A stretch of DNA of 64,000 nucleotides from an uncultured Elusimicrobia bacterium (lineage in GTDB: Bacteria; Elusimicrobiota; Elusimicrobia; 2-01-FULL-59-12). This document shows, in pieces, positions 24,001 through 30,000 of the stretch. A program made the position numbers. Position 1 is the stretch's first letter; each line of letters starts with the position of its first letter. The stretch is from the NCBI GenBank assembly GCA_963702895.1, contig OY969767.1, forward strand, positions 1,312,001 through 1,376,000, read 5' to 3'.

Positions 24001-27000
24001 CTCTTTCTTCTCCCAAACGTAAAAGGCTCCCTCCGACATCTCGGAGGCCTGGCCAGACGGCGAAGAATCGGCATCTTCCGCAGAAAAGAAGGCCCCCTCC
24101 GGAGAGGTCATATCCCGGGCAATGTAATCCAAGCTTTGGCGCGCGATACGGCGAAACTCGTTGTCCGCGGTGATTTGGAAGGCTTCCAGGTAGTTCACGA
24201 TCAGCTGCGCGTTATCGTAGAGCATCTTCTCAAAATGTGGAATGTTCCAGCGGGGATCCGTGGCGTAGCGAGCAAATCCGCCGCCCAGTTGATCATAGAT
24301 GCCGCCACGGGCCATCGCGCGGAGAGTGGAAAGACTCATTTCGAGAGCCTCCTCTTGGTTCGTCCGAGCCCAGTAACGCATAAGAAACTGGTGATAGACC
24401 GGCATGGGAAACTTGGGGGCTTGCCCGAAACCGCCCCGGGAACCATCAAAAGAGGATCGCAGCGCCTCAAAGCCGCCGCTGAGCCAAATCGGGTCCAGGC
24501 GCGCAGGGGATGGGGAAGCTTCCACAACCTTTTGAAGCGAGTTCGTGATATCTCCCGCCACCGCAAGCATCTTCTCGCGATCGGTCGGCACCTTCCAGGA
24601 TGTCCCGATATGACGGACGATGTCCTTCCAAGCAGGGTGCCCCCGGCGCGCCTCGGGAGGAAAATAGGTTCCTCCGAAAAATGGCTTGAGATCGGGCGTC
24701 AGAAAGACGTTCAGCGGCCAGCCACCCTGGCCCGTCATCGCCGAGATCGCGGTCATGTAGATTTTGTCGATATCGGGGCGCTCCTCGCGGTCGACTTTGA
24801 TCGCGACCAGATACTCATTCATGAGCCTGGCAGAGCCTTCGTCCTCAAAAGACTCCCGCTCCATGACATGGCACCAATGGCATGTGGAATAACCGATGGA
24901 GACAAGGAGAGGCTTATCTTCACGCTTGGCTGTTTCAAAAGCGTCTGTCCCCCACGGGTACCAGTCCACCGGATTGTGCGCGTGCTGAAGGAGATAAGGA
25001 CTTTTCTCGTGGATAAGACGATTCGGTCGCGAGGAAGACATACGAGTTTCAGCGGTCATCGCAGAGGATCGGAAGCACAGACACCAACGCAGGAATGCCT
25101 TCTCGTTTCGTTGATCGGCTCACTCATTGTTGCATTCAAGCGGCAAGCCGAAACACCCTCAAGAGAAGGTTCGTGATCAGTCCGGCGACGACATCGTCCA
25201 TCACAATGCCCCAGCCGCCCGGAAGCAAGGCCAAGCGCTTGATGCGAAGGGGTTTCCATGAATCCAGCAAACGGAACAGGACAAGGGCCGTCAACAGGAC
25301 AGCGATCGACGTCGGCAGAAGCGCGACACTGATGAGATAGCCCAGCCATTCATCGATGATGATGCGCTGGTCATCCTTCTGGCCCAGCGATTCTTCCGCG
25401 ATGTCGCTGATGACCACGCTGATGAAGAAAATCCCAAGGAGGGTCAAGAGGCAGGCGAGCGTCCCTTGAGGGAGGAACCGGACGCAGGCCAGCCCCGCCA
25501 GAGAACCGATGAGGCCTGCTCCGGTTTGGTGGCGCGAAAAACGACGGGCAAGCCGTTCGAGGGGATAGCTCAAGAAGAAGCAGCTCGCCAAGGCCTGGCA
25601 ACACCAGACCACTCCGCGTTTCATGGGACTTTCGGTTCCCTAAGCTTTGAGAATTCTTTCAGGACGAGGTCCGAGTATTTTCGGATGTAGAGCACGCCTG
25701 AGACGATCGTCATGAGGGTGACAAAAAACACAAGCCAAAAGGGCAGACGCTCAAGCAGTTCTCTGAACCAGAGGGGCCAAGAGTCGGCGAGGAGGGGATG
25801 CGCTTCCATCGCCGAATTGATGATGAGAATCACAAGAATCAGAATAATCGCCGTCACTTGAGAGGCCATTTTGTACTTGCCCGCGCCCTCAGCAGACATC
25901 ACAACACCGCGCTTGGCCGCAAGCGTTCGCAAACCCGTAATCAGAAACTCACGGCTGATAATCAGGACGACCATCCAGGATCGAATGTGGAGCTCTGGAA
26001 GCTCCACAAAGCCCACGAGGGCCGCCGCAATCATCATTTTATCGACCAAGGGATCAAGGAACGTGCCGATCACCGTGACGGTCCCCGTACGTCGGGCGAC
26101 TCTGCCGTCATACCAATCGGTAAGGCTGGCCATGACGAAAATGGCAAGGGCCGCGACACGGGTCCAATAGTGATCGAAGACCATAAACACCATAAACCCT
26201 GGCAAGAAGGCCAGCCGGATGAGGGTCAGTCGATTGGCGATGGTCATGGAGGAGGGATACGAAAGGTATTGGTCTGGCCGCGCGCGCCCTGCGTGATGTC
26301 GTAAGGCTGATCATTCCACAAGAGCGATAAGGCGCTCACATCCCCTATTTTGAGATAGAAGGGGCCGCCTGACCATTCCTTGATGGAACCGGTCCGCAAG
26401 ATGCCTTCATAGAGCAATTCCTCATCGGTGCTGACACGCAACCAGCCATTGGCTTCGGCTTTGATGCGAACTTTGTGAATCTGGACGCTTGCGCGTGAGG
26501 GCACAGACAGGCGCGCTTCACTGAGCACACGGCGTTTGGTCCAGGGCATCGCGCTTGGCTCAAACAACCGTGGACTGAGGAGGTGATAAAGGACCCAAGC
26601 CAGAACCAACGCCACAATCCCAAATGTGATCAGCTGAGGGACAGAACTCGGAGACCAAGTCCGACGAGCAGCGGCGCGTGGGCGCGCGGGGACATCCTTT
26701 TCCCGTCGATCGGACCCGCGTCGTTCCACAGCCCCTGGCACATCCGTACCAGCTTTGGCACTCGGGGTCGACTGGCTTGCTTGTTGTTGTTGTCGATAGA
26801 GCGTGAGCGCCTCATCCGAGGAGACGCCGAGAAAGCGAGAATAAAGCCGCAGAAAGCCTAAACGATGACTTTCAGAAGGGAGCACGTCCCATCGCTCTTC
26901 CTCCAAGGCCTCAATAAAGCGCGTCGCGATGTGCGTACGCTTGGCGCACTCCGCCACCGCAAGACGATGGCGGAGCCTCGCCTGTTTTAAGAGCTCTCCG

Positions 27001-30000
27001 ATGGTATGTTGATGTTCAGTCGACATCGTGTCCATGGGTGCTATCCATTTTTAAGGGGGCGAGACCTGCGTCTTGAACTGGCCCAAGTGGGCGTCGATCC
27101 GATCATAAAAGATCGTCCAGCGATTGGTCCCTTCTGGTTTTTCTATAAATCCTTTGATCTCGAGTTGGCTCAAGAGGTCCGTGGCCCGTGCTGAGGAACC
27201 AAAATGAGCTTTGAGCAAATCTTGTGAGACGCGCTTGCGTTCCAGGACCAACATCAAGGCCTGCTGAAGGTCATCAAGCTCCTCCGACGTCTCGCCATAG
27301 ATCCCCTGCGCGCGCGCGTTGGCGGAGAGCGTGCGTTCATAACTGGGAGCGCCCTGCGAACGGACATAATCGGCGACCCCTTGGACTTCCTTGGTCGTCA
27401 CAAGGCCGCACTGTAAACGCGAAGGCTTCGGAGCGCCGGGTGGCAAGAAGAGCATGTCGCCTTGCCCGAGCAGGCTTTCGGCCCCCATGGTATCGAGGAT
27501 GACACGGGAATCGGTTTGTGAAGCGACCCGGAACGCGATACGGGCAGGCAGATTGGCTTTGATCACCCCTGTGATCACATCGACGCTCGGTCGCTGGGTC
27601 GCCAAGACCAGATGAATCCCTACCGCCCGCGCCATCTGGGTCAGACGCTGGATCGAAAGTTCGACTTCCTTCGCCGCCACCGCCATCAAGTCGGCAAGCT
27701 CGTCGATAATCACGATGATGTAGGGCTCGGCGGGCACGCCTTCGGCTTTCATTTTTTCATTGTAGTGATGGATGTCCCGCGCCATGGCGTTGGCGAACTT
27801 TTTAAACCTTTGGTCCATGACCTTGATCACACCCTCCAGGGCCTTCGCGGCTTCCTTCGGATCGGTGATCACGCGACAGTTTTCCGGGTTTTGATTGGGG
27901 TCAAAAAGATAGGGGATTCCGTTGTAGAGCGGAAGCTCAAGTCGCTTGGGATCGATCATGAGCATTTTGACCTCGTCGGGGGTCGCGCGGTACATCAAGG
28001 ACATCACCAGGGCATGGATACAGACGGATTTTCCAGCGCCCGTGCTGCCCGCGATGAGCAGGTGCGGCATGGTGGACAGGTCCGCCACGACGGGATGGCC
28101 CTCCGCGTCTTTCCCCAGAGCCAGCACGAGCTTCGAGGGATGAGTTTGAAAGTCCTGTGATTCGAGCACCTCCCGCAATCGAACCACCGCCCGCTTGAGG
28201 TTGGGAAGCTCGATGCCGACGGCGGACTTGCCGGGGATGGGGGCAACGACCCGTACGCTCATGGCTTTCATCGCCAAGGCAATATCGTTGGCAAGACTCG
28301 CAACGGATTGGACTTTGATGCCAGGCGCTGGTGTGAAATCAAAGCGCGTAATGATGGGTCCAGGGTGGATCTCGACGACTTTGCCTTGAACGCCAAAGTC
28401 CGCCAGCGTCTTTTCCAGGTGCTGGGCGCTCGCGAGGAGGTCCTCCTCGTTTGTCATCACGGGATTGCGTTCGCCATAGACCAGGAGCTCGAGGGCCGGT
28501 TTCACAAACGGCTTGCGCTCCGCTTCAACGTCCTCAGGACCCTTGGTGTCAGCAGGCTGGGCGGGGGACCGCAGCCGCTGGCCTGTCGCAGGAATAGCTT
28601 GGGTGGCGATCTCAGGTTTGTTGACCACGGGCGGCACTTTTGAAGGATCTTCCTTGCCGTGGATCTTCGGCATCACTTTCGGCAGAGGTTTTTTCGCCGC
28701 CGTCGGGCTTTGGGCCTTTGATTTTTGAAGGTGAACGGCTTGCCGCCATTCGTTCCAGTCCATCGAAAGACGGTGCCAGAACCACGCCAACACCTCCCCA
28801 GGCCTGCGACCCGATCGCCAAAGAATGACTCCCAGCAACAAGACACTGGAGATAAAGAATCCCCCCCAGGCGCCGAAGAATTGCTTGAGCAAACCGCTCA
28901 TCATTTTGCCGGCATAGCCGCCGGGGTTCATGTCCAGAAAGAGTGATCCAAACGAGCTCAGAACGGCTGAGGCAGAAATAACAAGTAGTGCGTCGACGAG
29001 CAAATAGCGCCAGGGCTGGCGGGTCTCCCGATGTAAGATGAGCCGGATGCCACGATACCCCACAAGAAGCCACACGAGATAGCTGCCCTGACCAAAGGCA
29101 CGAAGCGTCGACCGGGCAAGCATCATACCGACCACACCAAAGCGCCGAGGCCATAGGGTGCAGGCAAGGCCCAGCAGACTGATCGCCGCCAGACAAAAAC
29201 CGGAAAACTCAGGCGAGACGCTGTCTCTCGTCCGCTCTTTCCGATAGCCGACGCGTGCGCGCAAGGGTGTCCAGTTCATGAGGCAGGCTCAATGTGAAAA
29301 AGGGCTTGCCCGGCGGAAACCGAGCGACCATTTTCAGCGAGGATCTTCAGGACTTTGAAGCGTGACTCCGCTTTAATCTCATTCATCACCTTCATGGCCT
29401 CGACGATGCAGAGGGTTTGTCCCGCATCAACGACGTCCCCTTCCTTGACGAAGGGAGGGCTGGTGGGCGCGGAGGCCCTGTAGAACACCCCCGCCAGCGG
29501 TGACTCAATCGCCGGAGCCTTCACGGCGGGTTCGGCAGCGGGAGCCGAACCGGTTTTGGAAGCCGGCGAGCCCGCCCGAGGATGCGCTTGCGTTGGCAGA
29601 GGATAGACCCCAGCCAGGGCAGAAACGGACCCTCGCCGGACCAGCTTGATCCGGCTGTCTTCCTCTTTGATCTCCAGCGCGTCCAGATCCTTCTCGAGCA
29701 TGAGATCGTAGAGTTCTTTGAGTTGCTCGAGGTCCGTTGGCATCGTCGTTAAAAGTTGCCGCGTCTCCTCGGACCGCGGTCGCGTCCCCCAAAGGACCGT
29801 CCACCGCCGCCGCGAAATTCGCCTCGTCCGCGGCCGCCTCCCACGGACTCTCGTCCGCCTTCATTTTCAGAGCCGGGATGAGTAACCGCTTTACGCGAAA
29901 GGTTGATGCGCCCTTGAGCATCAACTTCGAGGACCTTGACTTCAAGCTCATCTCCCTCTTTGCAGACATCTTCCGCTTTCTCCACAAAGGTGGGCGCCAG

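What a model noticed while it worked through the whole genome (the two positions that open the first line are those of the whole stretch)
26244..29279. A diderm with LPS, Bam, Lpt, Pal and LolCDE-like genes but no LolA: clean deletion from the ftsK-rodZ slot
lolA lies between ftsK and rodZ in six order mates, but here ftsK ends 15 bp before rodZ and no LolA is found anywhere. The same empty slot occurs in all three genus mates and one family mate, so a lineage with a full outer membrane appears to have lost the periplasmic lipoprotein chaperone.
Evidence so far: No LolA, LolA_2 or LolA_like in six frames; an HMM from the six relatives' LolA finds nothing (best E 1.8; call 196). ftsK-lolA-rodZ in 6 of 6 relatives' loci; ftsK abuts rodZ in G064, G149, G150, G151. 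lnt, lgt, lsp, lolD/lolE-like, lptA-G, bamA, pal and cpoB present; 62 lipobox-like proteins.
(Added by a program. Inside this text positions count along the whole contig: contig position 1,312,001 is position 1 of the stretch shown here. "Call 12" and the like, gene names such as g00115 and contig names such as C1 are that model's own, and its searches are not shown. The text may have been shortened before it was handed on; [...] marks where a part breaks off. The agent that wrote the report below was given it as the finding of a first reader that could run no searches.)

Follow-up and report, generated by a model that had tools for sequence, protein, structure and literature searches.

The report
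LolA lost, TPR-fused LolB kept
A small lineage of two-membrane bacteria has deleted the shuttle protein that normally carries lipoproteins to the outer membrane, but keeps a hidden relative of that shuttle's receptor on a long soluble arm, which may now do the carrying alone.

Summary
The loss is real. ftsK ends 15 bp before rodZ; lolA fills that slot in 6 order mates and is matched in 258 of 301 phylum genomes, but is gone in this genome, 3 genus mates and 1 family mate, which form one clade (moderate support). LolF, LolD and lipoboxed LptE, Pal and CpoB are intact. It ends a secreted, unlipidated 690-aa TPR protein directly before ispE, the known lolB slot; its model matches LolB best (Z 14.9). 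This fusion is old in the phylum, is kept in 5 of 5 LolA-less genomes and is absent from one LolA-bearing family mate. After the loss the LolF Hook changed at the position matching LolC I178 (Ala/Pro in 5 of 5; bulky or branched in 35 of 35 LolA-bearing genomes), and the genus shortened the domain by two strands. Best reading: the soluble TPR-LolB became the sole carrier (0.45); rival: a LolAB-independent route (0.33). Function is untested. No earlier scan note or paper on this was found.

The parts
27051..29279 (-). ftsK, 742 aa
   Evidence: Pfam FtsK_SpoIIIE E 4e-58, FtsK_alpha, FtsK_4TM
27036..27050 (-). 15-bp spacer: the empty lolA slot, no remnant. The other parts of the system lie outside the window, on the same contig: TPR-LolB-fold gene 202856-204928 (+), ispE 204925-205758 (+), lolF 1088526-1089743 (-), lolD 1087826-1088533 (-), tamB-like 1077679-1082634 (-), bamA 1075125-1077527 (-), lptE near 1146597-1147214 (-), pal 1673619-1674131 (-)
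   Evidence: spacer; TPR gene, TamB, BamA, Pal; LolF, LolD; LptE
26244..27035 (-). rodZ, 263 aa
   Evidence: Pfam HTH_25 and RodZ_C
25621..26247 (-). pgsA-like CDP-alcohol phosphatidyltransferase; follows rodZ in the LolA-bearing loci too
   Evidence: PF01066
29276..29743 (-). accB-like biotin carrier; precedes ftsK here and in G010, G017, G022, G104, G138
   Evidence: PF00364

Best explanation
Shown: lolA was deleted, probably once, in the ancestor of genus g1 plus G002; LolDF and lipoprotein cargo were kept; the only detectable LolA/LolB-fold domain left is the C-terminal LolB-type barrel of a secreted, unlipidated TPR protein in the lolB slot. Inferred: in this phylum LolB lost its lipid anchor by fusing to its neighbouring TPR gene, and in family f1 it also lost the hydrophobic insertion loop, so it became a second soluble lipid-binding barrel overlapping with LolA. 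Either barrel could then be lost: G004 dropped the fused domain, this clade dropped LolA. Here LolDF extracts the lipoprotein and hands its acyl chains to the TPR-fused barrel through a re-tuned Hook; the 14-repeat arm brings it to the outer membrane, where it is released by a step that needs no LolB loop.
For: Fold: pLDDT 89 model, top three matches LolB (Z 14.9, 14.3, 14.2; 159-161 residues aligned, rmsd 3.2-3.3), then LolA (13.1). A mixed LolA/LolB HMM holding no order member of this domain finds it at E 1.6e-11, next hit E 1.3. Signal peptide without a conserved Cys, read by eye in 7 order homologues with an intact N-terminus. Kept in 5 of 5 LolA-less genomes; absent from LolA-bearing G004, where the TPR gene ends on the ispE start, and not found in G017 and G074. 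Purifying selection inside g1 (pN 0.25-0.36, pS 0.76-0.84) after a burst on the g1 stem (0.72 against TPR 0.13, RodZ 0.24, LolF periplasmic domain 0.02) plus a two-strand deletion. [quoted passage not shown]
Against: No function was measured. The fusion is also present in 4 LolA-bearing order mates (G003, G008, G009, G011) and widely in the phylum, so its presence is not a response to the loss; one loss among LolA-bearing relatives against none in one clade is not a significant pattern. The domain is not more conserved in LolA-less than in LolA-bearing genomes, and in LolA-less G002 it shows neither the burst (0.71 against TPR 0.79) nor the deletion. The Hook change and the deletion can equally be read as relaxation. 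The insertion loop is missing in 7 of 8 f1 domains, so the last step is unexplained. Single Hook substitutions are tolerated in E. coli in vivo.
Confidence: 0.45

Rival explanations
1. Natural LolAB-independent trafficking: LolDF passes lipoproteins to an unknown route (for example a TamB/AsmA-type bridge), and the TPR-LolB domain is a decaying or repurposed relic.
For: lolAB can be deleted in engineered E. coli while LolCDE stays essential (PMC6538781; PMC10865981); F. johnsoniae lives without any LolA or LolB (PMC11885536). Family f1 looks like stepwise dismantling: loop lost in 7 of 8, domain lost in G004, LolA lost in 5, Hook residue changed in 5 of 5, hairpin lost in 4 of 4 g1. A 1651-aa TamB-like gene lies between the lolF-lolD cluster and bamA.
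Against: The domain is still under purifying selection in g1 at the same relative rate as in LolA-bearing relatives. TamB is in 11 of 12 order genomes regardless of LolA. No Lpt expansion: one LptF, LptG, LptA and LptD in G000 and G002, as in 3 LolA-bearing controls.
Confidence: 0.33
2. Another, still undetected open-barrel protein is the carrier, such as one of the two DUF3108 proteins or one of the unannotated secreted proteins.
For: Pfam missed the TPR-fused domain itself, so profile searches are leaky. 68 of 184 scanned secreted candidates have no Pfam family. Two DUF3108 genes are present, and the family is in 11 of 12 order genomes; from memory, not from a call, DUF3108 forms an open beta-sheet resembling LolA-like folds.
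Against: The mixed HMM and a motif scan found only the TPR-fused domain. DUF3108 gave no PDB match and no profile match to the LolB-like alignment (probability 0.6%), though hhalign also failed on LolA against the LolB-like domain (10%). The listed beta-rich unknowns read mostly as outer-membrane barrels or Ig-like domains by eye.
Confidence: 0.13
3. Little trafficking is needed: LptE, Pal and CpoB stay in the inner membrane or work without delivery, and LolDF has another job.
For: No clear BamD in any of 12 order genomes; best PF13525 hits are CpoB and a long TPR protein.
Against: LptE and CpoB keep lipoboxes in LolA-less and LolA-bearing genomes alike, and Pal keeps one in G000; LolF is conserved in 12 of 12 order genomes at 59-77% identity within f1.
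Confidence: 0.06
4. Assembly or binning artefact.
For: All genomes are probably metagenome-assembled; G005-G007 are 73-89% complete.
Against: Five genomes share the empty slot with different junction sequences; G000 is one contig, 98% complete, no N; G002 is 98% complete; the Hook change tracks the absence.
Confidence: 0.02

Closest known systems
E. coli LolCDE-LolA-LolB and Acinetobacter LolDF-LolA-LolB (PMC13575116, passages)
   Same: Single LolF-type permease with adjacent LolD; best PDB hits are LolF (E 4e-55); Hook has 10 residues between its prolines, as in A. baylyi LolF.
   Different: No LolA; the LolB-type barrel is unlipidated and fused to 14 TPRs.
Bifunctional LolA of Caulobacter, LolB-less (Smith et al. 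2023, PMC9963962; passages and section 5)
   Same: One barrel left between transporter and outer membrane; same TPR-(lolB)-ispE gene order used as positional evidence.
   Different: Mirror image: here LolA is lost and the lolB-slot protein is kept. The paper calls LolA universally conserved in Proteobacteria and infers that lolB arose at this locus only in beta/gamma-Proteobacteria; LolB-like genes follow the same TPR family in 19 of 76 non-Elusimicrobiota loci and are fused in 4 of 4 Elusimicrobiota loci.
Bacteroidota LolB (PMC11885536, PMC12889592; passages) and DUF4292
   Same: Divergent LolB fold; the full-length G002 domain matches P. gingivalis LolB at Z 15.3, tied with E. coli LolB 15.1 and just below two LolA-superfamily proteins at 16.6 and 16.1; 3 of 35 family members hit DUF4292.
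   Different: Those are lipoproteins with a hydrophobic loop, in genomes that keep LolA.
Engineered E. coli and F. johnsoniae lacking lolAB (PMC6538781, PMC10865981, PMC11885536; passages)
   Same: Outer-membrane lipoproteins are delivered without LolA while the ABC transporter is kept.
   Different: Those are laboratory deletions; this is a natural, stable loss.

Membership tests
Canonical LolA (PF03548 / TIGR00547) in G000 | Stand-alone ~200-aa secreted protein matching LolA profiles, in this phylum after ftsK | tested here: not met
   the single tblastn hit at E 8e-4 lies inside a 397-aa gene of a sugar-biosynthesis cluster and has no HMM support
LolB (for the C-terminal domain at contig 204354-204925) | LolA/LolB open beta-barrel fold | tested here: met
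   Atlas 10 of 10 best family hits in one clan, at low recognition
LolB | Gene position after a TPR gene and before ispE | tested here: met
   Overlaps ispE start by 4 nt; ispE in 24 of 27 phylum loci; order described in PMC9963962 section 5
LolB | Lipoprotein anchor (lipobox Cys) | tested here: not met
   Cleavable-type signal, no conserved Cys, read by eye; no signal-peptide predictor was available. The unfused relatives have a lipobox in 16 of 19 by pattern, 18 of 19 by eye
LolB | Hydrophobic protruding loop (E. coli L68) | tested here: not met
   Absent in G000 and 6 more of 8 f1 domains, present in 27 of 27 domains outside f1; equivalence to L68 is by position and recalled motif
LolB | Inserts lipoproteins into the outer membrane | not testable with these tools
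   needs an insertion assay
LolA (functional role of the fused domain) | Soluble periplasmic protein with hydrophobic cavity | tested here: inconclusive
   Signal and alternating hydrophobic strands fit; cavity not measured on coordinates
LolA (functional role of the fused domain) | Is recruited by the LolF Hook and accepts cargo | not testable with these tools
   needs binding and release assays
LolDF transporter | One LolC/E-type permease next to LolD, with Hook | tested here: met
   best NCBIfam hits lolCE 336 bits (cut-off 362) and LolD 251 (cut-off 308), both under cut-off, as for lolCE in 12 of 12 order genomes
Diderm with lipoprotein cargo | BamA, Lpt set, lipoboxed LptE and Pal | tested here: met
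   BamD not found; Lnt and LspA by motif only; Lgt not tested

The most novel reading that the evidence does not exclude
The TPR-LolB protein is a one-piece carrier arm: the 14-repeat TPR rod docks on an outer-membrane or cell-wall partner and swings its barrel between LolF and the outer membrane, so lipoproteins cross the periplasm with no diffusing shuttle. The same TPR family sits beside a lipid-anchored LolB in deltaproteobacterial lineages and alone in Alphaproteobacteria, so it may be an overlooked, ancient part of the Lol pathway.
Probability: 0.2. Interest if true: 0.9.

Novelty: new variant of a known kind. Interest (0 to 1): 0.72.

Why it matters
How lipoproteins reach the outer membrane without LolA is an open question raised by laboratory deletions in two phyla. 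This clade is a natural LolA deletion with close LolA-bearing relatives, a matched Hook change and one named candidate, so either outcome of a simple release or complementation test is informative. It also extends LolB-type genes at the TPR locus far beyond beta/gamma-Proteobacteria, which bears on when LolB arose, and shows a TPR-LolB fusion that I did not find in print.

Tried and rejected
Complex prediction of the LolF periplasmic domain with the G000 domain gave no answer (median 0.11, runs 0.57, 0.11, 0.01); it is evidence neither way. hhalign of LolA against the fused domain was weak (10%) and of DUF3108 against it null; the alignments are shallow. Pfam found nothing on the G000 domain. 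Family f9 (0 of 4) and f3 misses looked like further losses; the 4 genomes checked (G104, G138, G017, G022) had a LolA-like ORF after ftsK (one of two scanned hit TIGR00547 at E 7e-5, the other nothing); 37 other no-match genomes were not checked. Expanded Lpt route: not supported. tblastn hit at contig 1237127-1237408: stronger than 60 shuffled controls (best 0.035) but inside an unrelated gene, 1 of 6 queries, no HMM support; rejected. A weak A1 hit in G002 (E 0.046, with a stop inside) was not pursued. G001 and G010 cannot test the fusion: ispE itself was not found there. A scan of named genomes with the LolB-like alignment could not be run for lack of conserved stretches, so the TPR part was used. 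Brucella TtpA (621-aa periplasmic TPR, synthetic lethal with the LolA/B-like EipB; 10.1101/551135, passages) may belong to this TPR family, but I could not test orthology. Kaplan 2018 was not held, so its Hook data are cited through PMC10865981. Raw reads were not examined.
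Full report
Observation. ftsK (27051-29279, minus strand) stops 15 bp before rodZ (26244-27035) with no remnant between them. Of 12 genomes in the order, 7 match PF03548; six matches over the cut-off sit between ftsK and rodZ. The seventh, in G007, is a flexirubin LolA2-like gene in an unrelated cluster. ftsK abuts or overlaps rodZ in G005, G006, G007 and G002, each with its own junction sequence. G010 lacks the region. In G000 (one contig, 98% complete) PF03548, PF17131, PF09865 and two local LolA HMMs find nothing. The phylum label Elusimicrobiota comes from earlier scan notes and agrees with the titles of the nearest hits.

How rare. An alignment of the six LolA matched 258 of 301 phylum genomes. 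Besides G000 and G002, 41 had no match; I checked 4 and all carry a diverged LolA-like ORF right after ftsK, so those misses are insensitivity. A tree of eight concatenated proteins groups the four g1 genomes with G002 (SH-aLRT 89.6, bootstrap 81), nested among LolA-bearing genomes. Of three alternative trees two were rejected and one (g1 with G008, which would mean two losses) was not (p-AU 0.14; only 2000 replicates).

The rest of the pathway is intact. LolF is present in 12 of 12 order genomes with LolD beside it in G000; best PDB hits are LolF, best NCBIfam hits lolCE and LolD, both below cut-off. BamA, Skp, a TamB-like protein, LptA, C, D, E, F, G, TolB, Pal and CpoB are present. LptE, Pal and CpoB keep lipoboxes. 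No clear BamD was found in the order. The lpx gene labels near bamA are my reading of the sequences, not a tool result.

The hidden barrel. A sub-threshold PF17131 hit in G002 (E 0.018) lay at the end of a TPR protein before ispE. The G000 orthologue is at contig 202856-204928: signal peptide, 14 repeats of 34 residues, then about 180 residues with no Pfam match. The Atlas placed the domain in the LolA/LolB clan. The AlphaFold2 model (pLDDT 89, 35 rows) matches LolB of E. coli, V. cholerae and Xanthomonas at Z 14.9, 14.3 and 14.2, then LolA at 13.1; the Foldseek list is dominated by LolA and LolB. A mixed HMM built without any order member of this domain finds it at E 1.6e-11 and nothing else below E 1.3 among 2301 called genes or in six frames. 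Smith et al. describe TPR-lolB-ispE as the lolB slot. The fusion was found in 39 of 301 phylum genomes with a narrow profile (a lower bound, as G052 and G063 were missed there and found later); 24 of 27 inspected loci have ispE and 24 of 27 the TPR signature. Among the best 80 of at least 600 loci of this TPR family, the domain is fused in 4 of 4 Elusimicrobiota and 0 of 76 others; a separate LolB-like gene follows in 19 of 76 (16 in deltaproteobacterial lineages; lipobox in 16 of 19 by pattern); ispE is within 3 kb in 20 of 80, and all three occur together in 1. So the domain is the positional and structural LolB of this phylum, with its lipid anchor replaced by a secreted TPR arm.

What changed and when. 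The hydrophobic loop is present in 27 of 27 domains outside family f1 and in 1 of 8 inside it (G002), so it was lost before LolA. The domain is present in 5 of 5 LolA-less and 4 of 5 informative LolA-bearing order genomes; in G004 the TPR gene ends on the ispE start. All four g1 genomes lack about 21 residues, two strands in the G002 model. The g1 stem branch is 0.72 for the domain against 0.02-0.24 for five control regions, after which pN is 0.25-0.36 against saturated pS; G002 shows no such burst. In LolF the residue before the Hook's closing proline, I178 in E. coli LolC and V180 in A. baylyi LolF by that anchor, is F, L, I, M, V or T in 35 of 35 LolA-bearing genomes (29 with loci, all matched, plus 6 order mates) and Ala or Pro in 5 of 5 LolA-less genomes; length and a tip Leu are kept. 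These five are kin, so this is one or two events. I178A is among the most LolA-binding-deficient Hook changes in vitro, though single changes are tolerated in vivo.

Search for other carriers. Of 652 secreted-like genes, 312 of 130-450 aa passed a stricter signal score and 184 of 140-345 aa passed a composition filter that would have dropped a few true family members. Pfam named 116 of 184: no LolA, LolB, LppX or MucB family, one DUF3108; 68 had no family. A second DUF3108 was missed by my start call. Their fold was not tested.

Mechanism. Best: the fused barrel, soluble and loop-less, overlapped with LolA, allowing reciprocal loss, and is now the acceptor for LolDF (0.45). The loss, the fold, the position and the sequence changes are shown; cargo binding, docking and delivery are inferred. 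Rival: LolDF feeds the unidentified LolAB-independent route known from E. coli and F. johnsoniae deletions (0.33); the same sequence changes can be read as relaxation, but continued constraint on the domain argues against a relic. From memory, 14 TPRs span roughly 10 nm, less than a typical periplasm, so a fixed bridge is less likely than a carrier or swinging arm.

Literature. I saw passages of PMC9963962 (plus section 5 whole), PMC12889592, 10.1101/551135, PMC13575116, PMC6538781, PMC11885536, PMC10865981 and 10.64898/2026.10.02.756314; no supplements were read, and the synteny figure in the supplement of PMC9963962 may bear on the claim about LolB outside beta/gamma-Proteobacteria. Searches listed no paper on LolA loss in this phylum or on a TPR-LolB fusion; the library lacks most subscription journals. 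From memory, some Terrabacteria diderms lack Lol altogether; a recent loss with LolDF kept is the unusual point here. Earlier scan notes held nothing on this.

Verdict. Real, rare, and partly misread: not a genome without a Lol barrel but one that kept the LolB-slot barrel and dropped LolA. New variant of a known kind; interest 0.72.

Noticed in passing
G000 contig 1075125-1094389 (L085, L056): lnt, lolF-lolD, a 1651-aa TamB-like gene, bamA, skp and lpx-like genes lie in one same-strand cluster; the TamB-like gene is in 11 of 12 order genomes.
   Followed up: partly
order-wide: No clear BamD in 12 genomes; best PF13525 hits are CpoB and a ~1030-aa TPR protein (G000 contig near 2097495-2098274) that could stand in.
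   Followed up: no
L188, L227, L233, L249, L255 and 14 more loci: LolB-like lipoprotein genes directly after the TPR gene in deltaproteobacterial lineages, where LolB has been reported absent.
   Followed up: partly
G000 contig 1466242-1467045 and 2484144-2484965: Two DUF3108 secreted proteins, one inside the Kdo/Lpt gene cluster.
   Followed up: partly
L007 (G007:C245): Flexirubin/aryl-polyene-type cluster (ammonia-lyase, thioesterase, LolA2-like, MMPL-like) in one genus mate only.
   Followed up: partly
L008 (G003:C197): Second, dissimilar LolA at a contig end beside a C-terminal protease gene; possible contaminant contig.
   Followed up: no
L349-L366 (family f17): LolF Hook is about 4-5 residues shorter in family f17 although LolA is present.
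   Followed up: no
window 16865-20017: Four adjacent secreted genes with lipobox-like signals (CsgG/LpoB-like, GNA1162-like, FlgT_N-like, LPP20-like): further likely cargo for the pathway.
   Followed up: no
G000 contig 31591-72639: A 13,682-codon ORF called with a signal-like start.
   Followed up: no
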